NCBI GenBank assembly: GCA_027028245.1
Contig: JALVJO010000021.1
Coordinates: 7,639 to 71,638 of the forward strand
Direction: 5' to 3'
Source: Deltaproteobacteria bacterium
Lineage (GTDB): Bacteria > Desulfobacterota > Dissulfuribacteria > Dissulfuribacterales > QOAL01
Length of the DNA stretch: 64,000 nucleotides
The position numbers and the translations under genes were made by a program. This document shows, piece by piece, positions 5,579 to 46,206 of the stretch (the stretch's first letter is position 1; the number at the start of each line of letters is the position of its first letter). Below the pieces are notes generated by a model, which saw only the letters and a program-made list of their open reading frames with translations, was not told the origin of the DNA and made no database searches.

Positions 5579-6832
5579 TTATTGAAATTTTTTAAAGATC
5601 AAGACCCCATTTGTCCCGCCAAATCCGAAAGAGTTGCTCATCACAGTTCGAATATCTGCTGACCTTGCCTCGTTGGGCACGTAATCCAGGTCGCATTCGG
5701 GATCGGGATTTTCATAATTTATGGTTGGCGGAATCAATCCATCCATAAGGGTCTTGATGCTGAAAACAGCTTCTATGCCTCCGGCACCTCCAAGAAGATG
5801 CCCTGTCATGGACTTGGTGGAACTTACCGGGATCTTGTATGCATGATCTTGAAAGACCTGCTTGATGGCACTGGTTTCGCAGCTGTCATTAAGAGGCGTG
5901 CTGGTGCCGTGGGCATTGATATAATCCACGTCCTCGGGGCTCATTCCCGCATCCTTGAGTGCTTCTTTCATGCACCTGGCCCCGCCCTCTCCGTCGGCAG
6001 GAGGTGCAGTCATATGATATGCGTCACCAGTCACGCCGAAACCGCATATTTCTCCAAGGATCCGGGCGCCCCTTTTTTCCGCATGTTCCAGGCTCTCAAG
6101 TATCATCATCCCTGACCCCTCGCCTATGACAAACCCGTCCCTGTCCCTGTCAAAGGGCCGTGAAGCGCGCTCCGGATCATCGTTTCTGGTGGAAAGGGCC
6201 TTGAGGGAGGAAAAACCTGCAAGGGCAAGTTCTGTGATTACTGCTTCCGTGCCTCCGCAGAACATGGCATCTGCTGTCCCCCTCTGGATTTCCTTGAAGG
6301 CCTGGCCGATTGCATGGGTCCCGGCGGCGCAGGCTGTGCATACGACAGTGTTGGGCCCCTTGGCATTGAAAAGTATGGAGATCTGGCCAGAGGCCATGTT
6401 TGGAATAGCCATGGGAATGAAGAAAGGGCTCACCCTTCTTGGCCCCCTGCTTACCAGCACGTCCCTGAAATATTCTATGCTGCCCAGGCCGCCAAGCCCG
6501 CACCCGGTGATAACCCCGATACGGTCCGGGTTCATATCCGCCGTTTCCAGCCCGGAATCCTCCCAGGCCATGCGCGAAGCCGCTATGGCGTACTGAACGA
6601 AAGGGTCAAGCCTTCTGACCAGCTTCCTGGGCATGAACTCTTCAGGCTTAAAGCCCTTTACTTCCGCTGCGATCCGGCATGAATAGCCTTCTGTGGAAAA
6701 CTTGGTAACAGGCCCTATGCCTGACCTGCCCTCTACGATGCTTGACCAGCTGTCATCTACTCCGATTCCAACAGGCGTAATCAGGCCAAGGCCCGTGACC
6801 ACTACCCTGCGGTCAGATGCATAATTACCCAT
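5579..6832 (-). CDS. fabF: Beta-ketoacyl-ACP synthase II
   Basis: RRVVVTGLG, active-site [14 protein letters not shown] and the GHLLGGAGG...FGFGGTN C-terminus. Confidence 0.95.
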
Positions 6833-6853: not shown

Positions 6854-7087
6854 CTATCCCATGTGCTGTTTTACGTAATCGATTGTATCCTTGACAGTCT
6901 GAAGCTTTTCTGCGTCCTCGTCGGCTATTTCCATGCCGAATTCTTCCTCCATGGCCATGACAAGCTCCACCAGATCAAGAGAATCTGCTCCAAGATCGTC
7001 GGTAAAAGAGGCCTGAGGAACCACCTTTTCCTTTGGAACGCTGAGCTGGCTCGATATGATTTCCGTTATCTTTTCCTGAACATCCAT
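6854..7087 (-). CDS. acpP: Acyl carrier protein
   Basis: [20 protein letters not shown] phosphopantetheine-site motif. Start chosen at ATG 7087 (GGAGG 10 nt upstream), because the track's TTG at 7096 is only 1 nt after the SD. Confidence 0.93.
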
Positions 7088-7118: not shown

Positions 7119-7874
7119 TTACTGGCAGACCAGGCCGCCGTTTACGTGAAACGTGTGTCCGGTGACATAGGATGCAGCCTCCGATGCAAGAAAACCCACT
7201 GGCCCTGCGATCTCTTCTGGAACGCCCATTCTTCCCGCTGGAATCTGGGCCAGGAGACCAGTCTTTATCTTTTCTGGAAGGCCGGCTGTCATGTCGGTCT
7301 CGATAAATCCAGGTGCCACCAGGTTGACTGTAATACCCCTTGCGGCCATTTCCCTTGCAGCAGTGCGTGTAAGACCTTCAAGCCCGGCCTTTGCGGCACT
7401 ATAGTTTGCCTGGCCGATGTTGCCCGTGGTTCCCACAACAGAACCTATGTTTATAATGCGGCCCCAGCGGCTTTTCATCATGGCCATGGCACATGCCTGT
7501 ATGCAGTTGAATGCCCCCTTGAGATTGACGTTCATTACCTGGTCCCAGTCGGCCTCCTTCATCCTTGCCAGTAGTCCGTCACGCGTAATCCCCGCGTTGT
7601 TTACAAGAACCTGGACTGGACCGTATTCCTTTATGAGACCAGACACTGCACCCTTTACAGCCTGGGCATCCGAAACGTCGAAGGGACATAGGACAGCCTG
7701 TCCTCCAGCTGCCTCGATTTCAGAAAGCACCTTCTGGGCTGCCTCCTTGTTGCTGGTAAAATTTATGAACACCCGGGCGCCCATGGCGGCCAGTTTCAGG
7801 CATATGGCCCGTCCGATCCCCCTGGACCCTCCTGTGACCAGTGCATTTTTCCCTTCAAGATCTCTTCCGGGCAT
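7119..7874 (-). CDS. fabG: 3-oxoacyl-ACP reductase
   Basis: SDR motifs TGGSRGIGRA, NNAG and YSAAKAG. ATG 7874 shares a base with the etfA stop (TGATG). Confidence 0.93.
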   Translation of the reverse strand: MPGRDLEGKNALVTGGSRGIGRAICLKLAAMGARVFINFTSNKEAAQKVLSEIEAAGGQAVLCPFDVSDAQAVKGAVSGLIKEYGPVQVLVNNAGITRDGLLARMKEADWDQVMNVNLKGAFNCIQACAMAMMKSRWGRIINIGSVVGTTGNIGQANYSAAKAGLEGLTRTAAREMAARGITVNLVAPGFIETDMTAGLPEKIKTGLLAQIPAGRMGVPEEIAGPVGFLASEAASYVTGHTFHVNGGLVCQ

Positions 7875-9079
7875 CAATCATTCCCCCGTTCCTGACAAAT
7901 TCGGCGTACCAGCAGGGGAAGAATATCCTTGACATCCCCTACTATTCCGTATGTGGCCACATCAAAAACAGGCGCATCAGGGTCCTTGTTGACTGCCACA
8001 ATAATCTCCGAACCCTGCATTCCCACAAGATGCTGTATTGCGCCGCTGACCCCGAAGCCCATGTACAACTTGGGAGAGACAGTGACCCCGGTCTGGCCTA
8101 TCTGGCAGCGTCCAGGCAGCCATTCAGCATCCGTGACCGCCCTTGTGGCACCTACTCCGCCTTCCATGCAATGGGCGAGTTTCTCAATAAGTGCTATGTT
8201 TTTTGGGTTTTCAACACCTCTTCCCGCGGTAATTACTACCTCGGCCTCTGTGAGCATGGGTCCCTCTGCCTCTTCCATCACCGATTCCAGGACCTTTATG
8301 TTGCTTTTAAGCAGATCTTCGTGGGGGTCGATCTTTATGACTTCTCCCTGCCTCGAAGCATCGGGTTCCATGGCCTTCAAGACATGAGGCCTCACAGTGG
8401 CCATCTGCGGTCGTGTGGAATCGCAAATGATGGTCGCCATGAGGTTTCCGCCAAATGCCGGCCTCGTCTGGAGCAGGTCTCTTCCTTCCGGGGCTATCTC
8501 TAAACCTGTACAGTCTGCAGTAAGACCGGTTTCCAGGATGGTTGCCACCTGGGGTATAAAGGCCCGGCCCATTGCAGTAGCTCCTGCAAGGATGATCTCC
8601 GGTTTTTCCTTCTGGGCCATGTCAGCCAGTATCCTGGCGTAGACATCATCCAGAAACTGTTCCAGCCTAGGACTGTCTACCACAAGCACCTTGTCAGCGC
8701 CCCTTTCTATGAGGGACTCGGCATATTCACCCACACCGCTGCCCATGAGAACGGCGGTAAGATCCGTCTCAAGATCATCTGCCAGCTGTCTGCCCTTGCC
8801 CAGAAGTTCAAATGTGACCGGGGCGAATCTATCGTGCCTGAACTCAGCAACCACCCAGACGCCCCGCCACGCATCAAGGTCCATGCCCCCTGCCGGGCTG
8901 ATGTCCTCTCCCTCTATTTCTATTGCCCCTTCGGGACAGGCCTCTTCACAGGCACCGCACAACGTACATGTATCCGGGTCAACAACGGCCTTTTCATCCA
9001 CTATGGATATTGCACCAAAGGTGCAGACATCCTCGCACTCGCCGCAGCCCACGCATTTTTCGAGATCTACAACTACCAT
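7874..9079 (-). CDS. etfA: Electron transfer flavoprotein alpha subunit with N-terminal 2x[4Fe-4S] ferredoxin domain (CarE/FixB-like)
   Basis: N-terminus has two CxxCxxCxxxC(P) motifs (CVGCGECEDVC; CTLCGACEEACP). The rest is a typical EtfA (VVITAGRGV...PKLYMGFGVSGAIQHLVGM). ATG 9079 overlaps the etfB stop (TGATG). Confidence 0.9.
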   Translation of the reverse strand: MVVVDLEKCVGCGECEDVCTFGAISIVDEKAVVDPDTCTLCGACEEACPEGAIEIEGEDISPAGGMDLDAWRGVWVVAEFRHDRFAPVTFELLGKGRQLADDLETDLTAVLMGSGVGEYAESLIERGADKVLVVDSPRLEQFLDDVYARILADMAQKEKPEIILAGATAMGRAFIPQVATILETGLTADCTGLEIAPEGRDLLQTRPAFGGNLMATIICDSTRPQMATVRPHVLKAMEPDASRQGEVIKIDPHEDLLKSNIKVLESVMEEAEGPMLTEAEVVITAGRGVENPKNIALIEKLAHCMEGGVGATRAVTDAEWLPGRCQIGQTGVTVSPKLYMGFGVSGAIQHLVGMQGSEIIVAVNKDPDAPVFDVATYGIVGDVKDILPLLVRRICQERGND

Positions 9080-9867
9080 CAAATGATCCCTGCTTCCTTT
9101 AATTTATCAACCAGGGCATCCACCTGCTCTTCTGCCGTACCAGGCAGCATCTCCCGCCTGGCCTCGAACTTGGGAATATGAGTGGAAAATACCTTGGTGG
9201 GAGAACCGGCAAGACCGATCTTATCCTTTTGTGCCCCGATATCCTCTGCACTCCAAAGGGGAATATCCGCCTTCCTGGCCCTCATCTTGCCCTTTAGAGA
9301 CGGAACGCGCGGAGTGTTAAGAGATGCCAGAACAGTAAGAAGGACCGGGAAACCTACTTCCACAACATCGTAGCCCTGCTCGCACATGCGCTTTACCCTG
9401 AGCCCCGCGCCTCCTTCCATTATTTCCATCTCTCCCACACAAGTGACGCAGGGAAGACCCAGCCTTACGGCAAGTCCTGGCCCCACCTGGGCGGTATCTC
9501 CGTCAATGGCCTGCTTGCCGCAAAAAACAGCGTCCACGCTGCCCAGTTTGCGGATGGCCCGGGAGAGGGTATAGGTGGTGGCAAGGGTATCTGCGCCTGC
9601 AAATGCCCTGTCAGAGATGACGACTCCGTGGTCAACACCCATGGACATTGCTTCCCTTATGGCATCCTGTGCCTGGGGCGGCCCCATGGTAACAGCCGTG
9701 ACCTTACCGCCGAGCTCGTCCCTGAGGCTCAGGGCGGCTTCTATGGCATTGTAGTCAAAGGGGTTGATTACACTCTGTACTCCGTCCCTGATAAGGGTGC
9801 CTGTCTTGTGGTCCCATTTGACGCTTGCAGCGTCTGGGACCTGTTTTATGCAGACTACGATATCCAT
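9079..9867 (-). CDS. etfB: Electron transfer flavoprotein beta subunit
   Basis: MDIVVCIKQVPD...INPFDYNAIEAAL...AVFCGKQAIDGDTAQVGP, the canonical EtfB pattern. It starts 2 nt after the ACAD stop. Confidence 0.92.
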   Translation of the reverse strand: MDIVVCIKQVPDAASVKWDHKTGTLIRDGVQSVINPFDYNAIEAALSLRDELGGKVTAVTMGPPQAQDAIREAMSMGVDHGVVISDRAFAGADTLATTYTLSRAIRKLGSVDAVFCGKQAIDGDTAQVGPGLAVRLGLPCVTCVGEMEIMEGGAGLRVKRMCEQGYDVVEVGFPVLLTVLASLNTPRVPSLKGKMRARKADIPLWSAEDIGAQKDKIGLAGSPTKVFSTHIPKFEARREMLPGTAEEQVDALVDKLKEAGII

Positions 9868-9869
9868 GA

Positions 9870-11033
9870 CTATTTTCTGGCGTATTCCTTGTTTAGGGCC
9901 TGTCCTATCACGTTTTTCTGGATCTGGTTTGTGCCTTCATAAATCTGCAGGATCTTTGCATCCCTCATCATTTTTTCAACGGGATAGTCCTTCATGTAGC
10001 CGTAACCACCAAGGATCTGGACAGCATCCGTGGTCACCTTCATGGCCACATCTGTGGGAAAGAGCTTTGCCATGGCCGAAAGCTTTGAAAAATTCTTTGC
10101 ACCGGCGTCAATGGTGCGTGCCACAGCATAGACCAGGGCCCTGGAGGCCTCTATATAGGTTGCCATGTCCGCAAGCATGTGCTGGATTGCCTGAAAGGAT
10201 ATAATGGGCTGGCCGAACTGCACCCTTTGCCGGGCATAGACAACGGATTCATCCAGGGCAGCCTGTGAAAGCCCTACGGCAATTGCCCCAATGCCAGGCC
10301 GTGCCAGGTCCAGGGTCCTCATTGCGATTATAAAGCCCTGCCCCCTCTTGCCAAGCAGCCTGTCCTTTGGTATTCGGCAGTCACTGAAGACCAGCTCCCT
10401 GGTGGAAGACGCCCTGAGGCCCATCTTTCTCTCCTTCTTGCCGAAATTGAAGCCTTCGTCTCCCTTTTCCACTATAAAGGCAGATGCTCCCCTGGCACCT
10501 TTTGCCTTGTCAGTCATGGCAATGATGGTATAAATCTCCGCCTCTCCGCCGCTTGTAATCCACTGTTTTGTTCCGTTGAGAACCCAGTAATCACCGTCTT
10601 CAACCGCAGTGGTCTTAATGGCAGCTGCATCACTTCCTGCCCCTGCCTCTGTAAGACCGAAGGCCACGAGACGTTTTCCTGCTGCTATGTCCGGGAGGTA
10701 TTTGGCCTTTTGTTCATCTGTCCCGTAGAGACATATTGGATATCCGCCCAGGGCGCTTGCGGCAAAGGTGGTCGTGATGGCTATACATCCGTATGCCATC
10801 TGCTCGACTGCAAGGCAGTTTTCAAAACAGCCTCCTCCAAGCCCTCCATATTCTTCAGGGATATAGAGACCAAACAGATCTGCCTGGGCAAGATCCTTCA
10901 TGATATCCCAGGGAAATTCCTCTGTCTCATCAAGCCTGGCCCTGACCGGGATAATCTTATCCCGGGTAATCTGCCTGGCCAGATCCACTATCATCTGCTG
11001 TTCTTCTGTCAGAAAATAATTTACGTTACTCAT
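9870..11033 (-). CDS. Acyl-CoA dehydrogenase (short/medium-chain, butyryl-CoA dehydrogenase-like)
   Basis: ACAD signatures AFGLTEAGAGSD, WITSGG and GGYGYMKDYPVEKMMRDAKILQIYEGTNQIQ (catalytic Glu). Confidence 0.92.
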   Translation of the reverse strand: MSNVNYFLTEEQQMIVDLARQITRDKIIPVRARLDETEEFPWDIMKDLAQADLFGLYIPEEYGGLGGGCFENCLAVEQMAYGCIAITTTFAASALGGYPICLYGTDEQKAKYLPDIAAGKRLVAFGLTEAGAGSDAAAIKTTAVEDGDYWVLNGTKQWITSGGEAEIYTIIAMTDKAKGARGASAFIVEKGDEGFNFGKKERKMGLRASSTRELVFSDCRIPKDRLLGKRGQGFIIAMRTLDLARPGIGAIAVGLSQAALDESVVYARQRVQFGQPIISFQAIQHMLADMATYIEASRALVYAVARTIDAGAKNFSKLSAMAKLFPTDVAMKVTTDAVQILGGYGYMKDYPVEKMMRDAKILQIYEGTNQIQKNVIGQALNKEYARK

Positions 11034-11083: not shown

Positions 11084-12067
11084 CTACCAGCGCATTGTGA
11101 CCCCTGCCCAGGTAAAGCCTCCTCCAAAGGATATCATCAGGACGTTATCTCCTTTTTTAAGCCTGCCTGAACGCCAGGCCTCGTCAAGTGCTATGGGAAT
11201 GCTTGCCGCTGAGGTATTACCATACTTATCAATATTGATAAAGACCTTCTCCTTTGGAAGATTCAACCTTTCCCTCAAAAAATCCAGGATCCTGATGTTG
11301 GCCTGGTGGGCAATAAGAAGATCAAGGTCATCGTTATTCCACCCGGCCTTTTCCATGGATTCATGGGCAACGGATTCCAGTGCCCTGACCGCGTGCTTGA
11401 AGACATCCTTCCCCTTCATCTCTATATACTGCCAGCCCTTGGAAAGAAGCTCCTGATCAATGGGATGGGCAGTCCCCAGTCCCTTGATGGTAAGAAGATC
11501 CCACACGCTGCCGTCTGCATGGAGACAGGTGGAAAGAATGCCGCTGTCACCGTCTGATGCCGTGACCACGGCGGCCCCTGCCCCGTCTGCAAACAGTACG
11601 CAGGTGGTCCTGTCCTCCCAGTTGGTTCTTCTGGAAAGGACCTCACTGCCTATGACAAGGATCTTCATTGAAGGATTGTCCCTTACGAATTTATCTGCAA
11701 TAGAAAGGCTGTAAAGAAACCCGGAACAGGTGGCTGAAACGTCAAATGCCCCTGCCTTCCCGGCTCCCAGCTCCCTTTGGACAAGGCAGGCCACAGAGGG
11801 CATGGGCATATCAGGCGTCAAAGTGCCGACAATAATAAGATCTATCTCGGATGCTTCGACGCCGGCCATTTCCAGGGCTGCGCGAGAGGCACCGACGGCA
11901 AGATCAGAATTGTTTTCACCCACACTGACGATATGGCGCTGTCTTATGCCGGTTCTCGTGGTTATCCACTCGTCAGAAGTATCTATCATAGATTCCAGGT
12001 CCCTGTTGGTAAGAACCTTTTCAGGCACACAGGAACCCGTTCCTGTAATTTTAGACCTTTTTGTCAT
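11084..12067 (-). CDS. fabH: Beta-ketoacyl-ACP synthase III
   Basis: Active-site ATCSGF, HQANIRI and GNTSAASIP motifs. 327 aa. Confidence 0.95.
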   Translation of the reverse strand: MTKRSKITGTGSCVPEKVLTNRDLESMIDTSDEWITTRTGIRQRHIVSVGENNSDLAVGASRAALEMAGVEASEIDLIIVGTLTPDMPMPSVACLVQRELGAGKAGAFDVSATCSGFLYSLSIADKFVRDNPSMKILVIGSEVLSRRTNWEDRTTCVLFADGAGAAVVTASDGDSGILSTCLHADGSVWDLLTIKGLGTAHPIDQELLSKGWQYIEMKGKDVFKHAVRALESVAHESMEKAGWNNDDLDLLIAHQANIRILDFLRERLNLPKEKVFINIDKYGNTSAASIPIALDEAWRSGRLKKGDNVLMISFGGGFTWAGVTMRW

Positions 12068-12079: not shown

Positions 12080-13087
12080 TCAGACTATCCTCAGGAAATC
12101 CCGACGGCTGTTGATGGATGCCTCCAGTTTGCCGGCAAGATCAAGGGCAGCAAGATTGTGTGCAACGGCTATGGCGTTTCTGACGGCCTTGGGGCTGGAA
12201 CTTCCGTGGCATATTATGGCAATGCCCTTGATGCCTAAAAGAGGGGCGCCGCCGATTTCGGAGTAATCCACCCTTTTTCGAAACCTTCTGAATGCCTTTC
12301 GTGCAAGCCCGTAACCCATGGAAGCCAGGATGCTGCCTTCGAGTTCGGTCTTGAGCATGGTCAAAATGGCCTCTGCCAGGCCTTCGCTGAGCTTAAGACA
12401 TATATTGCCGACAAAGCCGTCACAGACTACCACGTCCACCTCTCCCCTGAAAATATCTCTCCCCTCCACGTTTCCTACAAAATTCAGATCGCTGCTGGCC
12501 AAAAGATCAAAGGCCTTCTTCACCTGCTGGTTGCCCTTGGAGCCTTCCTCCCCTATGCTCAAAAGCCCCACCGAAGGCACGTGTTTCCTGTTGACTTCCC
12601 TGACAAAAAGGGAGCCCATTATGCCGAACTGCAGCAGGTGATGAGGCTTGCAGTCTACGTTCGCCCCTACGTCTATAATCAGGGACTGCCCCTTGAGGGT
12701 TGGGACCAATGTGGCAATGGCCGGCCGCACCCCCTTTATCCTGCCGAGAATGAACATGGCAGTAGCCAGAGTCGCGCCGGAATTTCCTGCACTCACCACT
12801 GCATGGGCAAGACCCTTTTTGACCAAGTCAAAGGCTACTCTGACAGATGAATCCTTTTTCTTCCTGAGGGAATCAGACGGTGCTTCCTCCATGCTGACCA
12901 CCTGAGAGGCGTCCTTGATGGTTATAGGCAGGCCGTCTCCGCCAGCATTCTTCAGCTCACTGTTGAGTAGACCGGAACGCCCGACCAAGATGATCTCGGT
13001 GCCGAGATCACGGGCTGCTGCCACAGCTCCTTCCACCAGGATGGCGGCACCGTGATCTCCGCCCATGGCATCAAGGGCAATGGTCAT
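12080..13087 (-). CDS. plsX: Phosphate acyltransferase
   Basis: IALDAMGGDHG N-terminus and GFVGN motif. Conserved rpmF-plsX-fabH synteny. Confidence 0.95.
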   Translation of the reverse strand: MTIALDAMGGDHGAAILVEGAVAAARDLGTEIILVGRSGLLNSELKNAGGDGLPITIKDASQVVSMEEAPSDSLRKKKDSSVRVAFDLVKKGLAHAVVSAGNSGATLATAMFILGRIKGVRPAIATLVPTLKGQSLIIDVGANVDCKPHHLLQFGIMGSLFVREVNRKHVPSVGLLSIGEEGSKGNQQVKKAFDLLASSDLNFVGNVEGRDIFRGEVDVVVCDGFVGNICLKLSEGLAEAILTMLKTELEGSILASMGYGLARKAFRRFRKRVDYSEIGGAPLLGIKGIAIICHGSSSPKAVRNAIAVAHNLAALDLAGKLEASINSRRDFLRIV

Positions 13088-13102: not shown

Positions 13103-13285
13103 TTATTCTTCATCCGATGAAAAAAAATCCTTGCCCTTGTATGTACCGCAATGGGGACAGATCCTGTGAGGCGCCTTTGGTTCAGCACATTGAGGACAGC
13201 TTGAGACTGCCGGTTTCCTGAGTGCATCGTGAGAGCGCCTGTTTCCGCGCCTGGACTTGGAAATCTTTCGTTTTGGTACAGCCAT
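13103..13285 (-). CDS. rpmF: 50S ribosomal protein L32
   Basis: [19 protein letters not shown]...CPQC...CPHCG. 60 aa. Confidence 0.95.
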
Positions 13286-13318: not shown

Positions 13319-13873
13319 TTATTTCCCTTGGGAAGAGCTTAAAGACTCTTTCAGGTTGGCCAGCACTGAAAACGGTCCGTGCCCTGTGATTTCTTTGCAC
13401 TGGCATCTTTCCTCGTTGAGATCGGCACCACAGCCGGGACAAAGACCCATGCAGTCCTTTTTGCAGAGTATTCTCATGGGCACCTGCAGAAGGATTTGCT
13501 CCCGGAAGAGATCTTCCACCCTTATTTCCCCATCTTCGTACCAATAGACCTCGATTTCATCACCGCTGACCTCATGGTCCGGATCGAGATCTGAATGGAA
13601 ATCTCCAGGCGGCTTGAGAAGGTAGAAAAAGGGGGTGTTCACTTGGAATGGGAACCTGTTGAGACATCTGTCGCATGAAAGGTGCAGAATACCTAGAACA
13701 TGTCCTGAAATCCTGACCTCAGAGCCCGAACGTCTCACCTCAAGTCTTCCCCTGGCACTTGAAATGGTGGAGTAATCATCTATCTCTGGTATATGCCCGG
13801 ACAATTCCTCAAAATTCAAAAACAGCCCTTCTTCAGGAATGTCCGATACCTTTATGTGTAATTCCGAAATCAT
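13319..13873 (-). CDS. yceD: YceD/DUF177 family protein
   Basis: C-terminal Cys cluster CKKDCMGLCPGCGADLN..CQC. Conserved position upstream of rpmF. Confidence 0.85.
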   Translation of the reverse strand: MISELHIKVSDIPEEGLFLNFEELSGHIPEIDDYSTISSARGRLEVRRSGSEVRISGHVLGILHLSCDRCLNRFPFQVNTPFFYLLKPPGDFHSDLDPDHEVSGDEIEVYWYEDGEIRVEDLFREQILLQVPMRILCKKDCMGLCPGCGADLNEERCQCKEITGHGPFSVLANLKESLSSSQGK

Positions 13874-14059: not shown

Positions 14060-14087
14060 AATATAAATGGCTCTGTGTGCTTGTCAA
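14060..14087 (-). promoter_or_regulatory. Strong sigma70-type promoter reading into yceD-rpmF-plsX...
   Basis: On the minus strand: TTGACA (14087-14082), 16 nt spacer, TATATT (14065-14060). It lies about 185 nt upstream of the yceD ATG. Confidence 0.55.
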
Positions 14088-22777: not shown

Positions 22778-25657
22778 CTAAGCGCACTTTTTCTCCAAGA
22801 CCTCCTTTACGCTTCTAAGAAGCTCGCTGATTCTGAAGGGCTTTTTCACAACCTGGATATTTCTGCAGGATTTTCCTGCAAAACAGTCGGGAAGATCCCC
22901 TTCATCCATTATAAAAAGCACGGGCAGGGAGCCGGCCTTTCCGCTGACTGCCTGAAATAAACCCAGGCAGTCCCGTCCAGCCAGGGCGGCATCCATTATC
23001 ACCATACTGAAGCTGCCACTGGAATTTCCAAGAACAGCCATGGCCTCGCCATCATCCCGGACCCTCAGCACCTGGTAATTGTTTTCCTGAAGGGCCTCTG
23101 CTATTACGGAACTTATTGTATCCTCGTCTTCTACAAGAAGTATTCTTTCACCGCCGCCCTCCCTTTTCCGTTCACTTTGTTCCTTCAGGAAGAAGGCAGC
23201 AGCAAGGCTTGCCGGAAAGTATATTTCAAAGGAAGATCCTTGTCCGGGCCGGCTTCTTACCTGAATGGTTCCATCAAACTGCCTCACTATGCCGTAAACC
23301 ACAGAGAGGCCGAGACCTGTTCCGGCACCGACATCCTTTGTTGTGAAAAAGGGATCAAAAATGTGCTGGAGCGTACGGCCGTCCATGCCCATGCCGGTAT
23401 CCGAGACGGTAAGCATTACGTAGCGGCCCGGGGCAAGATCATCCATTTTATCCTTTAGATAGACATTCTTGGTTTTTATGTACAGGATACCCCCGTGAGG
23501 CATTGCATCTGCCGCATTAACCACCAGATTCATTATCACCTGGTCTATTGCCTCGGAATCTGCCCTGATGCGCCAGGGATAATCCTCTAGTTCAATCACC
23601 AGATCTATGTTTTCAGTCAGCATGCCCCTGATCATCTTGGCCATCCTGGAGATGGATTCATTCAAATCGATCCGGGAAACCCGAAAGGTCTCGCGCCTGC
23701 TGAAAAGAAGGAGCTGCTGGACTAGGTCTGATGCGCGGGAAACAGAATACTGGATCTTTTGAAGATATCTTGCCACCATGCCTGCATCCCCCCGTTTTGA
23801 TCGCATAAGATCGAGGTTGACCTGGATAGCAGCAAGGATGTTGTTGAAATCATGGGCAATTCCTCCTGCAAGCACGCCCACGGATTCCATCTTCTGGGCA
23901 TGAAGAAGCTGGGCCTCGAGATTTGCCTCCCTGGTTATATCTTTCTTTACAGCGACAAAACGGTTTATGCTGCCGTCGTCGTTTTTGACTGGGAATATGG
24001 TGGTTTCATCCTGGACAAGACTGCCGTCTTTCTTCCTGTTGGTAAATCTTCCTCTCCATACCCTGCCGGCCTTGATGGTCTCCCACAGGTTCTTGTAAAA
24101 AGCCTCATCATGTGTGCCGCTCTTAAGGATTGAAGGAGACCTGCCAAGGACATCTTCCCGGCTGTAACCAGTAACGGCTGTAAATGCCGAGTTTACATAT
24201 TCTATCCTGCCGCGTGCATCTGTAATCATTACTGCCTCTGCAGCCTGTTCTATGGCCGCTGCCAAAACCCTGAGCCTTTTCTCTGCCTTTCTTCTCTGCC
24301 TGACCTCGCACTTTAACCTGCTGACAAAATCCCTGTTGTGGACAAGCTTCATAAACAGCAGGAAATAGATGAGTCCCAAGATAAGAAAAAGCAGGAGCAG
24401 TTCAAGGCGGTAGGAAAGATGACTGCTCAGTGGGTAAAATCTGGCCACGCTCACGGATTGCCCGTAGATTGGAAGGTTTACGAGCTTATAAAGCCTGCCG
24501 TCTGGAAAGCGGTACAGCCCTTTACCCAGGGCCTTGAGCCCCAATGAACGGGGATGGCTCGTCCCCAGTATCTTCTGCCTGTTGAGATACGATACGGTCC
24601 TTGGGGTCATTTTGCCTATAAGCCCCCCGGAAAACCGCTCTGGCCCGTAAAGGATGATGCCTGGTTTCACCATGAGGAGTATTTCGCTTCTTTTGAAATC
24701 CCGTCCCAGGACCTTGTCTATGTCCATCTTCATTACCAGGACACCCTGTATCTTTTTTTTCTTTATTACAGGCCGGGCAAAATAGATGCCTTCCACGCCG
24801 GTTGTAACGCCCTTTCCCAGGAACACATTGGAACGCCCCCTGAGTGCAAGCTGGAAATAGGGTCTGAAACCGTAATTTTTGCCGATAAATGCCGGCGCAG
24901 ATGACGATACAACATTCCCGGATTTATCCATGGCATAGACTGCCGAAGCCCCCAGAATCTTGGCCCAGGATTTTAATTCATGGGCTGTATTTCCTGCCTG
25001 GAAAAGCTTTTCTATGCCGGGCTGGACTGCGAGCAATTTAATCTCGGCCCTGCCGCGGCGCTCCATGTCGTAAAAAATCTTTTGATAGGTCTTTAGAGAT
25101 GCATATTCATCCGAAAGTCCATCCTGGAACTGAACCCTGTCAATCTTATAAAGAAAGATAGAAGAAACCCCGGAAATTATGAGAAAAAACACGATACCGG
25201 CCCAGGCTCTGAGGGTTATTCCAGGGAATCCGAAGAACAATTTGAGTGCAGTAAGGCATGCTGCTGCCAAAACACCTGTCTGGACCAGATAAAGCCACAC
25301 AACCTGGTTGGAAACCAGGACAACTTCCAGGAAAAAAGGCAGGGCAAGAGTAATCAGCAAGGTGGTCCAGGCGATCATGCTCCTGTAGCTGAGTGCCATG
25401 ATGGCAATTCCCAGAACTGTAAAACAGGCCACATAGAAAAAATGGACTCCTGGTGCCTGGCACCAGTTGCCGAAACAGGGAAGGCAGTGGTAGGAGAACT
25501 TGATTATCCCTGTCGAGGTGAAAATGAGGGTCAGGAGAAGAAAAAGCCTTCCTGTCCTGGCCTTGCTGAAAAGCCTTCCCGCGGACATGATCACTCCAAG
25601 CCCCAGGAAGAGGATGGAGGAAATAGTATTTAGGAGTTGAAGCTCGAAGGGATTCAC
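22778..25657 (-). CDS. Hybrid sensor histidine kinase (multi-TM + Cache-like + PAS + HisKA/HATPase + receiver)
   Basis: About 6 N-terminal hydrophobic helices. Periplasmic GKNYGFRPYF segment, PAS (ITDARGRIEYVNSAFTAVTGY), H-box GGIAHDFNNIL, DTGMGM/GTGLGLS and receiver ILLVEDED...VIMD. Confidence 0.9.
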   Translation of the reverse strand: MNPFELQLLNTISSILFLGLGVIMSAGRLFSKARTGRLFLLLTLIFTSTGIIKFSYHCLPCFGNWCQAPGVHFFYVACFTVLGIAIMALSYRSMIAWTTLLITLALPFFLEVVLVSNQVVWLYLVQTGVLAAACLTALKLFFGFPGITLRAWAGIVFFLIISGVSSIFLYKIDRVQFQDGLSDEYASLKTYQKIFYDMERRGRAEIKLLAVQPGIEKLFQAGNTAHELKSWAKILGASAVYAMDKSGNVVSSSAPAFIGKNYGFRPYFQLALRGRSNVFLGKGVTTGVEGIYFARPVIKKKKIQGVLVMKMDIDKVLGRDFKRSEILLMVKPGIILYGPERFSGGLIGKMTPRTVSYLNRQKILGTSHPRSLGLKALGKGLYRFPDGRLYKLVNLPIYGQSVSVARFYPLSSHLSYRLELLLLFLILGLIYFLLFMKLVHNRDFVSRLKCEVRQRRKAEKRLRVLAAAIEQAAEAVMITDARGRIEYVNSAFTAVTGYSREDVLGRSPSILKSGTHDEAFYKNLWETIKAGRVWRGRFTNRKKDGSLVQDETTIFPVKNDDGSINRFVAVKKDITREANLEAQLLHAQKMESVGVLAGGIAHDFNNILAAIQVNLDLMRSKRGDAGMVARYLQKIQYSVSRASDLVQQLLLFSRRETFRVSRIDLNESISRMAKMIRGMLTENIDLVIELEDYPWRIRADSEAIDQVIMNLVVNAADAMPHGGILYIKTKNVYLKDKMDDLAPGRYVMLTVSDTGMGMDGRTLQHIFDPFFTTKDVGAGTGLGLSVVYGIVRQFDGTIQVRSRPGQGSSFEIYFPASLAAAFFLKEQSERKREGGGERILLVEDEDTISSVIAEALQENNYQVLRVRDDGEAMAVLGNSSGSFSMVIMDAALAGRDCLGLFQAVSGKAGSLPVLFIMDEGDLPDCFAGKSCRNIQVVKKPFRISELLRSVKEVLEKKCA

Positions 25658-25661
25658 AGAA

Positions 25662-26696
25662 TCACAAGAATTCGTCCACCATGTTCAAGACCTGGTCATC
25701 CAGTTTAAGCAAGAGTTCCTCCATTCTTTTTTTGTTTATTATGATTTCATATCTCATGGCATTTTCCACCGGCAGATCCTCGATGGGAAAGCCCTCGAGG
25801 AGCATAACTGCCTGTCTGCCCGCCTGGTAGCCCATGTGCATGAAATCCACGCTGACACCGCCGAAAAATCCCGCCCTGGTAAAGGCCCTGTTGATGGCAA
25901 GATCAATTTTTTTTGCCCTGCTGGTGAGAACAGGTGCCAAATCCGCTATGGTCTTTCTGCGGCCGTCTCTGCCTCCAGGCAAGGACATAGTATCAGGTAT
26001 GTAGGCGACTATTTCCGGATCCTCATTGATACTGTCTACCGCTTTTAGGAGCTCCTTCAAATCAGAAACCGGGAACAATCTCAACTCATTGGAAAAACAG
26101 GTCTTCGCGAGTTCGGCCTTGACCTGTTCTTTTAAGATTTCACCCATGAAATCTGTAGAATACAAAAGGGCTACCTGACCCTTTTTCTTTAGGATCATTT
26201 GCAAAAATTCCATTTGATCCCTGAGGAAAAGGTATTCATACACCCCGGTTATATTACTGGTAGGCCTGCGGCCATTAAGAAAGGAAAACTTGCGGTTGTA
26301 AAAGGCTAGAGACCTGTTCAGGCCGGAAAAGACCACATACATGCTGTCCTTTCCTGCAAACCTGCACCCTACGCGGTAAAATGCCAGGTCATCCAGGGTC
26401 ACAATTACCTTGGGGTGCAGATTTTCAACGAGGGCAACGGCTTCTTTAACCCGATGCCGGACCCTTTCAGGTGGGAGTCTTTTGGAATCAAGAAAGATGC
26501 TTCTGACCGGGATGGTCCTGTACTTGCTTTCCTCAATTGCCTGGATAACGCCGAGATACTGGGGCCTGCCGCAGAGGTCGTCTTGGGCATAACTGGATAT
26601 TATCATTACCATTTCCTGGGCATGGAGAGCGTGAGAAGGCAAAAGAAGAAGCCAAAACAGAAAAACGGGAAACCCAAAAAGGCCTTTGCAGGTCAT
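25662..26696 (-). CDS. Periplasmic ABC-type substrate-binding-fold protein (PF04392-like), probable ligand-sensing partner of the kinase
   Basis: Signal peptide FPVFLFWLLLLPSHALHA. Type-I periplasmic-binding-fold-like sequence. Its stop lies 4 nt before the kinase start. The track start is 26741; ATG 26696 precedes the signal peptide. Confidence 0.65.
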   Translation of the reverse strand: MTCKGLFGFPVFLFWLLLLPSHALHAQEMVMIISSYAQDDLCGRPQYLGVIQAIEESKYRTIPVRSIFLDSKRLPPERVRHRVKEAVALVENLHPKVIVTLDDLAFYRVGCRFAGKDSMYVVFSGLNRSLAFYNRKFSFLNGRRPTSNITGVYEYLFLRDQMEFLQMILKKKGQVALLYSTDFMGEILKEQVKAELAKTCFSNELRLFPVSDLKELLKAVDSINEDPEIVAYIPDTMSLPGGRDGRRKTIADLAPVLTSRAKKIDLAINRAFTRAGFFGGVSVDFMHMGYQAGRQAVMLLEGFPIEDLPVENAMRYEIIINKKRMEELLLKLDDQVLNMVDEFL

Positions 26697-26815
26697 CACT
26701 TCAACAAGAAATCCTTTGCAGTCAGGAAACAATCTGCACATGGAGATTTACATTAATATACTCTTTAAACCAAGACGAAATAATTGTCCACGAACAAATA
26801 TGTTTGATCAAAAAA

Positions 26816-27703
26816 TCAGGCTGCTACGCTATTGTCCAGTTTTCTCTTGATCTTTTGCACTATTAAGTCCTTCTGGCTTGCCCATGAGGGTGCAACCAGT
26901 TCTCCTGGTGCAGGGTCCCCGGTAAGCCGATGAATAACCGTGTCTTCCGGCAGCAGCCGTATGGCATCGGCCACGGCTGCTGCATATTCATCAAGGGAGA
27001 TGGGCTGATACAAGCCGTCTGCAAAAAGTTTGTGAAGAGGGCTGTCTTTCACCACGTAAAGCTGGTGAAACTTGACTCCTTCAATGCCGAGTTCCCTGAC
27101 AAGAGCAGCTGTCTTCAGCATATGCCTGCGCGTCTCTCCAGGCAGTCCGAATATGACGTGCGCACAAACCAGGAACGGGAATTGCCTGGTAAGCCTTACC
27201 GTGTCGATAAAATCCTGTACGCTGTGGCCCCTGTTTATTCTTTTCAATGTCTGGTCCGAGGCGCTTTGAAGGCCGTATTCCATCCAGATCATCCTGCTGC
27301 CGAATATCCTGCCTATTAGTTCCAGCCTTTTTCTATCTACGCAGTCGGGTCTTGTTCCTATGGCTGCGCCTACTATTTCCGGAAACTCTGCTGCCTGACC
27401 AAAGATTTCTTCCAGCTTTTCGAGGGATGCAAAGGTATTTGAATATGACTGAAAGTAGGCGATAAAGGCCCTGGCCTTGTAGCGCCTGGCTGCCCACTCC
27501 ATGCCGCGAATCAGTTGTTCCCTTATACTCATCCCCCTGGCAAATGCTCCTGTCCCAGAACCCTGTTGATTGCAGTATATGCAGCCTCCCTGTTTTGAAT
27601 GGGGATCACGGTTGGGGCATGAAAGTCCTGCATCCAGGGGAATTTTTTGTACCCTGCACCCGAATTGGCGCCTGAGAAACTGGTTAAGAGTCAGAAAGCT
27701 CAT
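26816..27703 (-). CDS. Radical SAM protein, TIGR01212 (YhcC-like) family
   Basis: KIPLDAGLSCPNRD...GGCIYCN cluster motif and family-typical length (295 aa). Confidence 0.85.
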   Translation of the reverse strand: MSFLTLNQFLRRQFGCRVQKIPLDAGLSCPNRDPHSKQGGCIYCNQQGSGTGAFARGMSIREQLIRGMEWAARRYKARAFIAYFQSYSNTFASLEKLEEIFGQAAEFPEIVGAAIGTRPDCVDRKRLELIGRIFGSRMIWMEYGLQSASDQTLKRINRGHSVQDFIDTVRLTRQFPFLVCAHVIFGLPGETRRHMLKTAALVRELGIEGVKFHQLYVVKDSPLHKLFADGLYQPISLDEYAAAVADAIRLLPEDTVIHRLTGDPAPGELVAPSWASQKDLIVQKIKRKLDNSVAA

Positions 27704-35971: not shown

Positions 35972-36421
35972 CTAACCGGGCTTTTTGTCCCTCAGCTTTT
36001 TCAGGTCAACCAATCTCGATCCTCCGCCCCTCGGCCTGTCATCAGGCGAATTATCGTCTTCAGGAGCAGGTTTGCGCACCCCGCCGAGACCCGCCTGGCC
36101 GAGAAGCTGGTTGACAAGGCCGATGTACTGGCTTCTGAGGGCCGAGGCTATGTCCCTTTCCAATACAAAATAGGCTACCCTACTCCTCTGGACCCTTATG
36201 GAAGAGGTTGTCATGGCGTTTATCACATGAGGATGGAGCATGACCCCCCTGTTCTGGTCAAAGCTGACTGTGCAGGGAAAATAGAGATCAAAAAAGGCCG
36301 ATTTTTCCAGAGCAAACAGTACGGTTTCTGTCTGCTTGTTATACCGAATTTCTCCTATAAGGAGTCCTGTGCCGGAAAGTTCCAGCAGCACCAGCTCCCT
36401 TGCATTCTGCCTGAGTTTCAT
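35972..36421 (-). CDS. Uncharacterised protein with basic/disordered C-terminal tail, translationally coupled to pcnB
   Basis: 149 aa. Its ATG overlaps the pcnB stop (ATGA). The C-terminus is Pro/Gly/Arg/Lys rich (GGVRKPAPEDDNSPDDRPRGGGSRLVDLKKLRDKKPG). No family recognised. Confidence 0.6.
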   Translation of the reverse strand: MKLRQNARELVLLELSGTGLLIGEIRYNKQTETVLFALEKSAFFDLYFPCTVSFDQNRGVMLHPHVINAMTTSSIRVQRSRVAYFVLERDIASALRSQYIGLVNQLLGQAGLGGVRKPAPEDDNSPDDRPRGGGSRLVDLKKLRDKKPG

Positions 36422-45043: not shown

Positions 45044-45050
45044 ATTAAGC

Positions 45051-45086
45051 AAATAATAAAATGGCGAGACTGCAATTGGTCTCGCC
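45051..45086 (-). terminator. Rho-independent terminator downstream of tRNA-Gln
   Basis: On the minus strand: GGCGAGAC, 8 nt loop, GTCTCGCC, then ATTTTATTATTT. Confidence 0.75.
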
Positions 45087-45103
45087 TTGTCTTATTCAAG
45101 AAC

Positions 45104-45177
45104 TGGCTGGGGGACTAGGATTCGAACCTAGACTAGCAGATCCAGAGTCTGCGGTCCTGCCGTTAGACGATCCCCCA
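45104..45177 (-). tRNA. tRNA-Gln (anticodon CTG)
   Basis: Reverse complement folds as a cloverleaf: acceptor TGGGGGA/TCCCCCA, anticodon arm GCAGA-CTCTGGA-TCTGC, T-arm TAGGTTCGAATCCTA, discriminator G and encoded CCA. Confidence 0.93.
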
Positions 45178-45190
45178 GCATTAGCAGACA

Positions 45191-46130: not shown

Positions 46131-46206
46131 ATCTTTACTCCTTAGGATATTCTCCCCCTTGATGAAAGGGCTATATTTACTCCAATATGGTATTAAAAAG
46201 ATAATC

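What the first reader, a model, noticed from the sequence alone, without database searches (positions are those of the whole stretch)
7874..11033. CarCDE-like ACAD / EtfB / ferredoxin-EtfA module occupies the fabD slot of the FAS-II operon and is translationally coupled to fabG
**Seen.**
- The order is plsX-fabH-[acyl-CoA dehydrogenase, etfB, etfA with two N-terminal CxxCxxCxxxC motifs]-fabG-acpP-fabF.
- The junctions are tight: ACAD stop to etfB ATG is 2 nt, and etfB/etfA and etfA/fabG both share TGATG.
- No fabD, fabI, fabK, fabV or fabZ is in the window.

**Established.**
- The canonical bacterial cluster is plsX-fabH-fabD-fabG-acpP-fabF.
- ACAD-EtfB-(Fd)EtfA in this gene order is the architecture of electron-bifurcating enoyl-CoA reductases. 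Examples are the Acetobacterium woodii caffeyl-CoA reductase CarCDE, whose CarE carries the extra ferredoxin domain, and Bcd-EtfAB.

**Inference.**
- The module may serve as a flavin-based, possibly bifurcating, enoyl-thioester reductase for fatty-acid synthesis.
- Alternatively it may be an acyl-ACP dehydrogenase for anaerobic unsaturated fatty-acid formation.
- Either reading differs from its usual beta-oxidation role. I do not know of a described FAS-II system using this module.
Basis: partly seen in the sequence, partly recalled or inferred. Interest (0 to 1): 0.72.

Follow-up and report, generated by a model that had tools for sequence, protein, structure and literature searches.

The report
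Bifurcating-type acyl dehydrogenase–Etf in fatty-acid operon
A three-gene flavoprotein module, normally used by fermenting bacteria to reduce enoyl-CoA while making reduced ferredoxin, sits inside the fatty-acid synthesis operon of this bacterium and of many other strict anaerobes, and is most likely their unrecognised enoyl-ACP reductase.

Summary
The minus strand reads yceD-rpmF-plsX-fabH-ACAD-etfB-(Fd)etfA-fabG-acpP-fabF.

It is not a local oddity.
- Of 81 species-level genomes carrying this ACAD, 64 keep it next to FAS-II genes. They are mostly Desulfobacterota, plus some Nitrospirota.
- One of them is the cultured Syntrophobacter fumaroxidans (Sfum_1371-1373, directly before fabG and fabF).

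"Occupies the fabD slot" is wrong as a substitution. In 11 relatives fabD directly follows etfA, so the module sits upstream of fabD. From memory, that is where fabK sits in Firmicutes clusters.

The Etf is of the bifurcating type.
- Its best solved relatives are CarE and CarD.
- The beta-FAD loop and the CarE Arg203 equivalent are present, and so is a 2x[4Fe-4S] domain.
- The ACAD keeps its catalytic Glu. It is about 50% identical to Bcd and is the most conserved protein of the cluster.

Published data on S. fumaroxidans fit an anabolic role.
- The organism cannot grow on butyrate or crotonate, yet Sfum_1371 is abundant in all conditions.
- Its genome-scale model had to gap-fill the enoyl-ACP reductase step.

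Best explanation: an NADH-dependent, ferredoxin-reducing enoyl-ACP reductase (confidence about 0.55). The substrate has not been tested. I found no prior description.

The parts
14060..14087 (-). Promoter-like site upstream of yceD; candidate operon promoter
   Evidence: TTGACA-16-TATATT, 11 of 12 matches. This is a consensus match only.
13319..13873 (-). yceD (DUF177), first gene of the conserved run
   Evidence: PF02620. Syntenic in 49 loci.
13103..13285 (-). rpmF (ribosomal protein L32)
   Evidence: PF01783 on the ortholog. Detected by tblastn in 54 loci.
12080..13087 (-). plsX, phosphate acyltransferase
   Evidence: TIGR00182, 343 bits against a cutoff of 243.
11084..12067 (-). fabH, beta-ketoacyl-ACP synthase III
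   Evidence: NF006829, 439 bits against a cutoff of 249.
9870..11033 (-). Acyl-CoA dehydrogenase-family flavoprotein (387 aa); proposed catalytic enoyl-thioester reductase subunit
   Evidence: three ACAD domains; best solved relative is C. difficile Bcd 5ol2_C (397 bits; 51.5% identity); the catalytic Glu366 is invariant in 82 of 82 family members; below the cutoff of every NCBIfam equivalog (best is AcrC, 451 bits against 640).
9079..9867 (-). EtfB, small subunit of bifurcating type (predicted beta-FAD/NADH site)
   Evidence: CarD 243 bits, and the other bifurcating EtfBs 200-220 bits, against 87 bits or less for non-bifurcating ones. The QAIDGDTAQVG loop is present.
7874..9079 (-). EtfA, large subunit with an N-terminal ferredoxin domain
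   Evidence: CarE 6fah_A, 372 bits over residues 5-394. The QTRPAFGG motif gives the equivalent of CarE Arg203. ETF and ETF_alpha domains.
8894..9079 (-). Ferredoxin-like domain of EtfA (two CxxCxxCxxxC motifs, 2x[4Fe-4S])
   Evidence: Fer4, two stretches. Conserved in 49 of 56 family EtfAs.
7119..7874 (-). fabG, 3-oxoacyl-ACP reductase; its start overlaps the etfA stop (TGATG)
   Evidence: TIGR01830, 329 bits against a cutoff of 298. Junction read.
6854..7087 (-). acpP, acyl carrier protein
   Evidence: TIGR00517, 106 bits against a cutoff of 70.
5579..6832 (-). [quoted passage not shown]
   Evidence: TIGR03150, 658 bits against a cutoff of 494.

Best explanation
The ACAD-EtfB-(Fd)EtfA module is the enoyl-ACP reductase of this organism's type II fatty-acid synthase.

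**Proposed mechanism, by analogy with Bcd-EtfAB and CarCDE (inferred)**
1. NADH reduces the bifurcating FAD in EtfB.
2. One electron goes uphill, through the two [4Fe-4S] clusters of the EtfA ferredoxin domain, to ferredoxin.
3. The other electron goes downhill, via the EtfA FAD, to the FAD of the ACAD subunit.
4. After two rounds, the ACAD reduces trans-2-enoyl-ACP to acyl-ACP.

Each elongation cycle would then cost 2 NADH and return reduced ferredoxin. This recovers part of the large free-energy drop of the enoyl reduction, which would be valuable to energy-limited sulfate reducers and syntrophs.

**Shown:** gene content, operon structure, conserved linkage to FAS-II, the bifurcating-type sequence signatures, and the intact ACAD catalytic base.

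**Inferred:** the direction of the reaction, actual bifurcation, and above all that the substrate is an ACP thioester.
For: 1. **Conserved linkage.** Of 81 species-level loci carrying this ACAD:
   - 49 read (plsX/fabH)-ACAD-etfBA-(fabD)-fabG;
   - 5 read ACAD-fabG;
   - 5 Nitrospirota loci read ACAD-etfBA-fabD;
   - 5 end at the contig edge right after fabH/plsX-ACAD.
   
   Linkage survives rearrangement. For example, fabG-acpP-fabF-...-ACAD-etfBA-fabD occurs in L034 and L057.
2. **Coupling.** etfA overlaps or lies within 10 nt of fabD in 10 of 10 cases and of fabG in 17 of 43. In the window there is no terminator.
3. **Completeness of the clusters.** They hold every core FAS-II function except the dehydratase and an enoyl reductase. 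No FabI, FabV, FabZ or FabA hit occurs in 1.5 Mb of flanks, and the only FabK-family hits are the two discussed under evidence against.
4. **Etf type.** The best solved relatives are all bifurcating Etfs. The beta-FAD loop is present in 52 of 58 EtfBs, the CarE Arg203 equivalent in 53 of 57 EtfAs, and the Fd domain in 49 of 56. Arg203 is reported as crucial for bifurcation (PMC5861303).
5. **ACAD.** The catalytic Glu is invariant. The ACAD is more conserved than FabF: 75% against 65% mean identity.
6. **Cultured example.** S. fumaroxidans has plsX-ACAD-etfB-etfA-fabG-fabF.
   - Sfum_1374 is FabG and Sfum_1375 is FabF in the iSfu648 model, so the module is Sfum_1371-1373.
   - That organism cannot grow on butyrate or crotonate, yet Sfum_1371 is abundant in all conditions (PMC5947623).
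   - In iSfu648 the enoyl-ACP reductase reactions seen in the stored part of the table (R04430 and R04725) are flagged 'Gapfilling'. They are assigned to a generic FabG-like SDR, Sfum_0112. The other FAS-II steps came from the automatic reconstruction.
7. **Precedent.** ACAD-fold enzymes acting on carrier-protein thioesters exist. The MbtN, RedW and PigA families appear among the NCBIfam hits.
Against: - There is no direct evidence that the substrate is ACP-bound. No sequence feature examined separates ACP use from CoA use: family-specific residues and pocket residues are uninterpretable or inconclusive.
- Genome-wide absence of FabI, FabK, FabL and FabV could not be tested here. The only genome-level evidence is an indirect published gap-fill for one species.
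- One locus (L047) carries a FabK-family protein in the same cluster. It scores 196 bits against a FabK cutoff of 453 and has a Cys-rich insert.
- Another NMO-family gene lies 8 kb from an unlinked ACAD copy (L067).
- 17 of 81 loci, mostly Nitrospirota, show no linkage.
- 5 loci lack Etf genes beside the ACAD.
- In the S. fumaroxidans proteome the Etf subunits are less abundant than the ACAD.
Confidence: 0.55

Rival explanations
1. The module is a CoA-level enoyl-CoA reductase (Bcd- or AcrC-like). It would supply acyl-CoA primers to FabH, such as butyryl- or propionyl-CoA, or serve energy metabolism. On this reading it is co-transcribed with FAS-II for regulatory reasons only.
For: - The best NCBIfam hits for all three subunits are the acryloyl-CoA reductase subunits AcrC, AcrB and AcrA.
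- The best solved ACAD relatives are butyryl-CoA dehydrogenases.
- All characterised complexes of this type use CoA thioesters (PMC5861303).
- The ACAD lies directly after fabH in 32 loci.
Against: - All three NCBIfam scores are far below the equivalog cutoffs: 451 against 640, 235 against 475, and 324 against 600.
- No thiolase, 3-hydroxyacyl-CoA dehydrogenase, crotonase or CoA-transferase gene lies in the window cluster or in the S. fumaroxidans locus.
- Linkage persists where fabH is absent from the cluster, as in Syntrophobacteraceae. There the module pairs with fabD or fabG instead.
- S. fumaroxidans does not metabolise butyrate or crotonate.
Confidence: 0.2
2. The module is an acyl-ACP dehydrogenase for anaerobic unsaturated fatty-acid synthesis, a functional analogue of Helicobacter FabX. 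It would oxidise a saturated acyl-ACP to trans-2-enoyl-ACP for isomerisation.
For: - FabX shows that 'backtracking' dehydrogenation of acyl-ACP exists (PMC8626469).
- ACADs are dehydrogenases by name.
- No FabA was found in the window or in any locus.
Against: - The Etf is the NADH-linked bifurcating type. With NAD+ as acceptor, acyl-thioester oxidation is strongly endergonic: the enoyl-CoA couple is near -10 mV against -320 mV for NAD.
- FabZ already makes trans-2-enoyl-ACP in every elongation cycle.
- No isomerase gene accompanies the module.
Confidence: 0.08
3. There is no functional link. The ACAD-Etf genes are hitchhikers that were inserted once into an ancestral fab operon and inherited vertically.
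For: - 17 of 81 loci are unlinked.
- Most linked loci belong to one phylum, so vertical inheritance inflates the count.
Against: - Linkage is kept through several independent rearrangements and in a second phylum. The arrangements include ACAD-etfBA-fabD, fabG-acpP-fabF...ACAD-etfBA-fabD, and ACAD-fabG without Etf.
- Stop/start overlaps with fabD or fabG recur.
- The ACAD is under stronger constraint than the Fab enzymes.
- The ACAD is abundant in all growth conditions tested in S. fumaroxidans.
Confidence: 0.07

Closest known systems
Caffeyl-CoA reductase CarCDE of Acetobacterium woodii (PDB 6FAH)
   Same: - The gene order is the same: ACAD, then EtfB, then EtfA.
- CarE and CarD are the best solved relatives of the two Etf subunits, at 372 and 243 bits.
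- CarE shares the N-terminal 2x[4Fe-4S] ferredoxin domain.
- The Arg203 equivalent and a full-length EtfB C-terminus are present.
   Different: - The ACAD subunit is closer to Bcd (397 bits) than to CarC (320 bits).
- The neighbours are FAS-II genes, not the caffeate-activation genes.
- The host phyla are Desulfobacterota and Nitrospirota, not an acetogenic Firmicute.
- The presumed substrate is an aliphatic enoyl thioester, probably on ACP.
Butyryl-CoA dehydrogenase-EtfAB (Bcd-EtfAB) of Clostridia and Acidaminococcus (PDB 5OL2, 4L1F, 4KPU)
   Same: - The ACAD is 50-51.5% identical to these Bcds, with the same catalytic Glu.
- The Etf is of the same bifurcating group.
- The proposed chemistry is identical: 2 NADH + enoyl thioester + oxidised ferredoxin.
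   Different: - The window's family forms its own tight group. Members are at least 68% identical to each other and about 50% identical to Bcd.
- It lacks the one-residue insertion in helix E that the two Bcds have.
- Its EtfA carries a ferredoxin domain.
- It is embedded in an anabolic operon, not in a butyrate-fermentation (crt-bcd-etfBA-hbd) cluster.
Known enoyl-ACP reductases FabI, FabL, FabV (SDR superfamily) and FabK (FMN TIM barrel)
   Same: - The proposed reaction and pathway step are the same.
- From memory, fabK lies between fabH and fabD-fabG in Firmicutes clusters. That is the position the module takes relative to fabH, fabD and fabG here.
   Different: - The fold is unrelated (ACAD plus a two-subunit Etf).
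- There are three subunits, three FAD and two Fe-S clusters.
- It would use 2 NADH and yield reduced ferredoxin, instead of a simple hydride transfer.
Helicobacter pylori FabX
   Same: It is a flavoprotein with an Fe-S cluster that acts on acyl-ACP at C2-C3 within FAS-II.
   Different: - FabX is an NMO/FabK-fold enzyme working as a dehydrogenase/isomerase.
- The module here has an ACAD fold and an NADH-linked Etf that favours reduction.
Carrier-protein-dependent ACAD-family enzymes (MbtN acyl-ACP dehydrogenase; RedW and PigA prolyl-PCP dehydrogenases)
   Same: They show that the ACAD fold can accept phosphopantetheine-tethered substrates. These families appear among the NCBIfam hits.
   Different: - The scores are far below cutoff: 59 to 251 bits against 500 to 700.
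- These enzymes belong to secondary metabolism and work as dehydrogenases or oxidases.
- They have no bifurcating Etf partner.

Membership tests
Bifurcating ACAD-EtfAB complexes (Bcd-EtfAB / CarCDE type) | An ACAD-fold subunit with the catalytic glutamate | tested here: met
   Three ACAD Pfam domains. Glu366, equivalent to MCAD Glu376, is invariant in 82 of 82 family members.
Bifurcating ACAD-EtfAB complexes (Bcd-EtfAB / CarCDE type) | An EtfB that binds a second (bifurcating) FAD where non-bifurcating Etfs bind AMP | tested here: met
   Sequence level only. Bifurcating EtfBs score 200-243 bits, against 87 bits or less for non-bifurcating ones. The QAIDGDTAQVG loop is shared with CarD and A. 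fermentans EtfB and is present in 52 of 58 family members.
Bifurcating ACAD-EtfAB complexes (Bcd-EtfAB / CarCDE type) | [quoted passage not shown] | tested here: met
   QTRPAFGG aligns with CarE residues 201-208. The motif is present in 53 of 57 family members. Its role is reported in PMC5861303.
Bifurcating ACAD-EtfAB complexes (Bcd-EtfAB / CarCDE type) | NADH-dependent ferredoxin reduction coupled to enoyl-thioester reduction | not testable with these tools
   This needs an anoxic enzyme assay.
CarCDE specifically | An N-terminal 2x[4Fe-4S] ferredoxin domain on the EtfA subunit | tested here: met
   Two CxxCxxCxxxC motifs and two Fer4 stretches. The alignment to CarE starts at residue 5.
CarCDE specifically | Caffeate-respiration gene context and a CarC-type reductase subunit | tested here: not met
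   The neighbours are plsX, fabH, fabG, acpP and fabF. The ACAD scores higher against Bcd (397 bits) than against CarC (320 bits).
Acryloyl-CoA reductase AcrABC (NCBIfam equivalogs NF042970-72) | A score above the curated equivalog cutoff for each subunit | tested here: not met
   The scores are 451 against 640, 235 against 475, and 324 against 600.
Known enoyl-ACP reductase families (FabI, FabL, FabV, FabK) | An SDR or NMO/TIM-barrel fold scoring above the family cutoff | tested here: not met
   The module proteins are ACAD and ETF folds. It could only be a functional analogue, not a member.
FAS-II operon component (functional membership) | Conserved, co-directional, tightly spaced placement among fab genes across species | tested here: met
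   64 of 81 loci are linked. Stop/start overlaps are frequent. No terminator is predicted.
FAS-II operon component (functional membership) | Activity on acyl- or enoyl-ACP | not testable with these tools
   No sequence signature for ACP docking could be established.
FAS-II operon component (functional membership) | The host genome lacks any other enoyl-ACP reductase | tested here: inconclusive
   The window and 1.5 Mb of flanks hold no FabI or FabV, and only two FabK-family genes that score below cutoff. The published S. fumaroxidans model gap-filled the step. Whole genomes could not be scanned.

The most novel reading that the evidence does not exclude
This would be a fifth, mechanistically unrelated class of bacterial enoyl-ACP reductase: a three-subunit, flavin-based electron-bifurcating ACAD-EtfAB complex. 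Housekeeping fatty-acid synthesis in many Desulfobacterota and Nitrospirota would then regenerate reduced ferredoxin at every elongation cycle. It would be the first case of electron bifurcation built into a core anabolic pathway.
Probability: 0.5. Interest if true: 0.9.

Novelty: new variant of a known kind. Interest (0 to 1): 0.78.

Why it matters
- **A missing enzyme.** If correct, it identifies the enoyl reductase of FAS-II in a large group of environmentally dominant anaerobes: sulfate reducers, syntrophs, partners of methane-oxidising archaea, and Thermodesulfovibrionia.
- **A new enzyme class.** It would add a class of enoyl-ACP reductase unrelated to the FabI, FabK, FabL and FabV drug targets.
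- **Bioenergetics.** Energy-limited bacteria would recover energy as low-potential ferredoxin during lipid synthesis. This changes estimates of growth yield and redox balance.
- **Annotation.** These genes are routinely named 'butyryl-CoA dehydrogenase' or 'cyclohex-1-ene-1-carbonyl-CoA dehydrogenase'. In metagenome studies such names can be read as evidence for butyrate or fatty-acid oxidation. If the genes are anabolic, those inferences are wrong.
- **Testability.** Cultured S. fumaroxidans carries the module (Sfum_1371-1373), so the hypothesis can be tested directly.

Tried and rejected
1. **Terminator or attenuator between fabH and the ACAD.** The T-rich spacer has no significant fold and the scan finds no site there.
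2. **accB-accC upstream of the unlinked Nitrospirota copies.** This was my guess from ORF sizes, and it was wrong. The genes read as hpt, queD and pmbA/tldD by eye from the translations.
3. **An EtfA-FabD fusion in L071.** A 710-aa ORF came from a bug in my script. A TAG stop separates the two genes.
4. **Acyl-pocket depth.** The MCAD Gln95 and Glu99 positions are small residues in this family, but they are small in true Bcds too. The result is inconclusive.
5. **Family-specific residues.** Seventeen positions were listed (for example R31, Q157, H285, R306 and K317). They cannot be interpreted without coordinates or a model of the complex.
6. **The FabK-like gene of L047 as a FabX.** It scores higher against FabK structures (166 bits) than against FabX (126 bits), and below the FabK cutoff. 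It stays unassigned.
7. **Literature.** Ten full-text searches found no paper describing an ACAD/Etf in a fab operon or a bifurcating enoyl-ACP reductase. Subscription journals are largely not covered. Garcia Costas 2017 was not retrievable.

Full report
**1.

ORF listing and family scans confirm the gene run on the minus strand:
- yceD 13319-13873
- rpmF 13103-13285
- plsX 12080-13087
- fabH 11084-12067
- an acyl-CoA dehydrogenase-family gene (ACAD) 9870-11033
- etfB 9079-9867
- etfA 7874-9079, with two N-terminal CxxCxxCxxxC motifs
- fabG 7119-7874
- acpP 6854-7087
- fabF 5579-6832
- then rpiB and glyA

All Fab proteins score above their NCBIfam equivalog cutoffs.

The ACAD stop and the etfB ATG are 2 nt apart. 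TGATG overlaps occur at etfB/etfA and at etfA/fabG. Each start has a plausible Shine-Dalgarno sequence.

The 47-nt fabH-ACAD spacer has no significant structure (z = -0.6). No terminator-like site lies on that strand between fabH and fabF. A promoter-like site lies upstream of yceD.

The window contains no fabD, fabI, fabK, fabV, fabZ or fabA. This rests on Pfam scans of the large ORFs, precomputed gene tables, and tblastn with probes that themselves score above NCBIfam cutoffs.

The window comes from an uncultured member of the Thermodesulfobacteriota. Identical copies are in NCBI metagenome-assembled genomes. The nearest species representative is labelled 'uncultured Thermodesulfatator sp.'.

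**2. It is a widespread, conserved arrangement**

Their ACADs are 68-98% identical to the window's. I mapped the window's operon proteins, plus a FabD probe, onto these loci and onto S. fumaroxidans. The 81 loci fall into these classes:

| Arrangement | Loci |
|---|---|
| (plsX/fabH)-ACAD-etfB-etfA-(fabD)-fabG-(acpP)-fabF | 49 |
| ACAD-fabG, no Etf genes between | 5 |
| ACAD-etfB-etfA-fabD, away from fabG (all Nitrospirota) | 5 |
| fabH/plsX-ACAD, then contig end | 5 |
| No FAS-II neighbour (mostly Nitrospirota) | 17 |

- The labelled taxa include Thermodesulfobacteriaceae, Seep-SRB2, Desulfobulbaceae, Syntrophobacteraceae, Desulfarculales, Desulfobacca, Syntrophaceae and Thermodesulfovibrionia.
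- Two of the five ACAD-etfBA-fabD loci (L034, L057) have fabG-acpP-fabF just upstream.
- In many of the unlinked loci the ACAD follows hpt-queD-pmbA.
- Linkage therefore survives several different rearrangements.
- Across loci, etfB/etfA overlap or lie within 10 nt in 41 of 50 cases. The figure is 10 of 10 for etfA/fabD and 17 of 43 for etfA/fabG.

**3. The 'fabD slot' reading is wrong**

In 11 loci a gene directly follows etfA: L033, L034, L038, L042, L044, L047, L057, L069, L071, L074 and L084. All match the FabD probe by tblastn (273-628 bits, split in the frameshifted L044). The L069 copy scores TIGR00128 at 377 bits against a cutoff of 261.

So the module is an addition upstream of fabD, not a replacement for it. 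In the window's lineage fabD is simply encoded elsewhere. From memory, between fabH and fabD-fabG is where the enoyl reductase fabK sits in Firmicutes fab clusters.

**4. What the proteins are**

*Etf subunits*
- The five best solved relatives of each subunit are all from electron-bifurcating systems. They include CarE/CarD (6FAH), LctC/LctB (7QH2), 5OL2 and 4KPU.
- They score 260-372 bits for EtfA and 200-243 bits for EtfB. Non-bifurcating Etfs reach at most 156 and 87 bits.
- EtfB has the QAIDGDTAQVG loop that it shares with CarD and A. fermentans EtfB.
- EtfA has QTRPAFGG. [quoted passage not shown]
- Across the family these motifs are present in 52 of 58 EtfBs and 53 of 57 EtfAs.
- The ferredoxin domain is present in 49 of 56 EtfAs. 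The seven without it include the four 333-349-aa EtfAs of the Desulfobulbaceae-type loci L013, L020, L021 and L043, and two truncated or frameshifted ones, L035 and L044.

*ACAD*
- It is 51.5% identical to C. difficile Bcd and 50% identical to A. fermentans Bcd.
- It is below the cutoff of every NCBIfam equivalog. The best is AcrC, at 451 bits against 640.
- The catalytic Glu is kept in all 82 sequences.
- The family is tight, with at least 68% identity between members.
- Over 48 loci the ACAD is more conserved than the Fab enzymes. Mean identity to the window is ACAD 75%, FabF 65%, FabG 59%, EtfB 56.5% and EtfA 54%.

**5. Evidence from a cultured organism**

- A second homology search found the ortholog in Syntrophobacter fumaroxidans MPOB (ABK17062.1).
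- Its locus reads yceD-rpmF-plsX-ACAD-etfB-(Fd)etfA-fabG-fabF-rpiB-glyA.
- The iSfu648 model lists Sfum_1374 as FabG and Sfum_1375 as FabF. The module is therefore Sfum_1371-1373.
- The S. fumaroxidans proteome study states that the organism cannot grow on butyrate or crotonate. [quoted passage not shown] It offers no function (PMC5947623).
- In iSfu648 the FabG, FabZ and FabF reactions come from the automatic KEGG-based reconstruction. The enoyl-ACP reductase reactions visible in the stored part of the table (EC 1.3.1.10; R04430 and R04725) are marked 'Gapfilling'. They are assigned to Sfum_0112, a generic SDR that is also listed as FabG and as glucose dehydrogenase.
- This is indirect but independent evidence that no recognisable enoyl-ACP reductase was found in that genome.

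**6. Mechanism**

The best-supported reading is a Bcd/CarCDE-type complex acting as the FAS-II enoyl reductase.
1. NADH reduces the EtfB FAD.
2. One electron goes through the EtfA [4Fe-4S] clusters to ferredoxin.
3. The other goes via the EtfA FAD to the ACAD FAD, which reduces trans-2-enoyl-ACP.

Direction follows from thermodynamics. The enoyl-CoA couple lies near -10 mV and NAD at -320 mV. An NADH-linked bifurcating Etf therefore drives reduction. It also matters that FabZ already supplies trans-2-enoyl-ACP.

ACAD-fold enzymes can accept carrier-protein thioesters; the MbtN, RedW and PigA families are examples. What is inferred rather than shown is the ACP substrate, actual bifurcation, and the absence of another reductase in this genome.

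**7. Caveats**

- One locus (L047, labelled 'actinobacterium') has, together with ACAD-etfBA-fabD, a FabK-family gene between acpP and fabF. That gene scores 196 bits against the FabK cutoff of 453. It carries a Cys-rich insert and is nearer to FabK structures than to FabX. Its role is open.
- Five loci have the ACAD but no adjacent Etf genes.
- In S. fumaroxidans a second Etf (Sfum_0106-0107) is as abundant as the ACAD. The partner Etf may therefore vary.
- Neither family-specific residues nor pocket residues separate ACP use from CoA use.

**8. Novelty**

Ten full-text searches found no description of this module in FAS-II, or of a bifurcating enoyl-ACP reductase. The only mention found is the unexplained 'Bcd/Etf-like complex' in the S. 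fumaroxidans proteome paper. Public names for the ACAD are generic or misleading: 'butyryl-CoA dehydrogenase' and 'cyclohex-1-ene-1-carbonyl-CoA dehydrogenase'.

I rate it a new variant of a known kind: a known enzyme architecture in a new pathway, probably with a new substrate class.

**9. Scores**

| Item | Score |
|---|---|
| A functional link to FAS-II (any role) | about 0.85-0.9 |
| The enoyl-ACP reductase role specifically | about 0.55 |
| Interest | 0.78 |

Noticed in passing
L047:15176-16156 (+): A FabK-family (NMO) gene lies between acpP and fabF in a cluster that also has ACAD-etfBA-fabD. It carries a Cys-rich insert (CRQCLQDCKKNYC) and scores below the FabK cutoff (196 bits against 453). 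It may be an Fe-S-containing FabK or FabX variant.
   Followed up: partly
L067:18868-20025 (-): A second NMO-family protein (385 aa, Cys-rich C-terminal part, 100 bits to the FabK model) lies about 8 kb from an unlinked ACAD copy in a Thermodesulfovibrionales genome.
   Followed up: partly
L088 (S. fumaroxidans CP000478.1) and papers PMC5947623, PMC4509577: S. fumaroxidans has a second Etf (Sfum_0106-0107), as abundant as the fab-linked ACAD. It lies a few genes from a FabG-like SDR (Sfum_0112) and a ketoacyl synthase (Sfum_0113). This may be a second Etf-FAS association.
   Followed up: no
L043:13962-17121: An insertion of about 4 kb, with DNA-methyltransferase and restriction-modification-like ORFs as judged by eye from the translations, splits fabG from acpP in one Desulfobulbaceae-type cluster.
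   Followed up: no
L013, L020, L021, L043 (etfA): These four Desulfobulbaceae-type loci have short EtfAs of 333-349 aa that lack the N-terminal ferredoxin domain. They keep the fab-linked ACAD-etfBA arrangement.
   Followed up: partly
window 10327-10354 (-): A strong promoter-like match (TTGGCA-16-TATAAT, 11 of 12) lies inside the ACAD coding region. It may be chance: 15 sites were found against 7.2 expected.
   Followed up: no
window 27684-29168 and 36418-37863 (-): Two separate genes of the poly(A) polymerase / CCA-adding nucleotidyltransferase family lie within 9 kb of each other. One also has an HD domain.
   Followed up: no
window 29971-32952 (-): A 993-aa protein has only a short N-terminal patatin-like phospholipase match. 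No identical product is on record in the protein collection.
   Followed up: no
window 22778-26741 (-) and 55135-59247 (+): Two large hybrid histidine kinases (PAS, HisKA, HATPase and receiver domains) each sit beside a periplasmic solute-binding protein gene.
   Followed up: no
window 41744-46208: A 601-aa radical SAM protein, two ORFs without Pfam hits, a response regulator with an ANTAR domain, and a Memo-like protein lie close together. This resembles an AmmeMemoRadiSam-type neighbourhood.
   Followed up: no
L030, L045, L054, L065, L077 and others: In many Nitrospirota the unlinked ACAD ortholog follows a conserved hpt-queD-pmbA/tldD run. The reason is unknown.
   Followed up: partly
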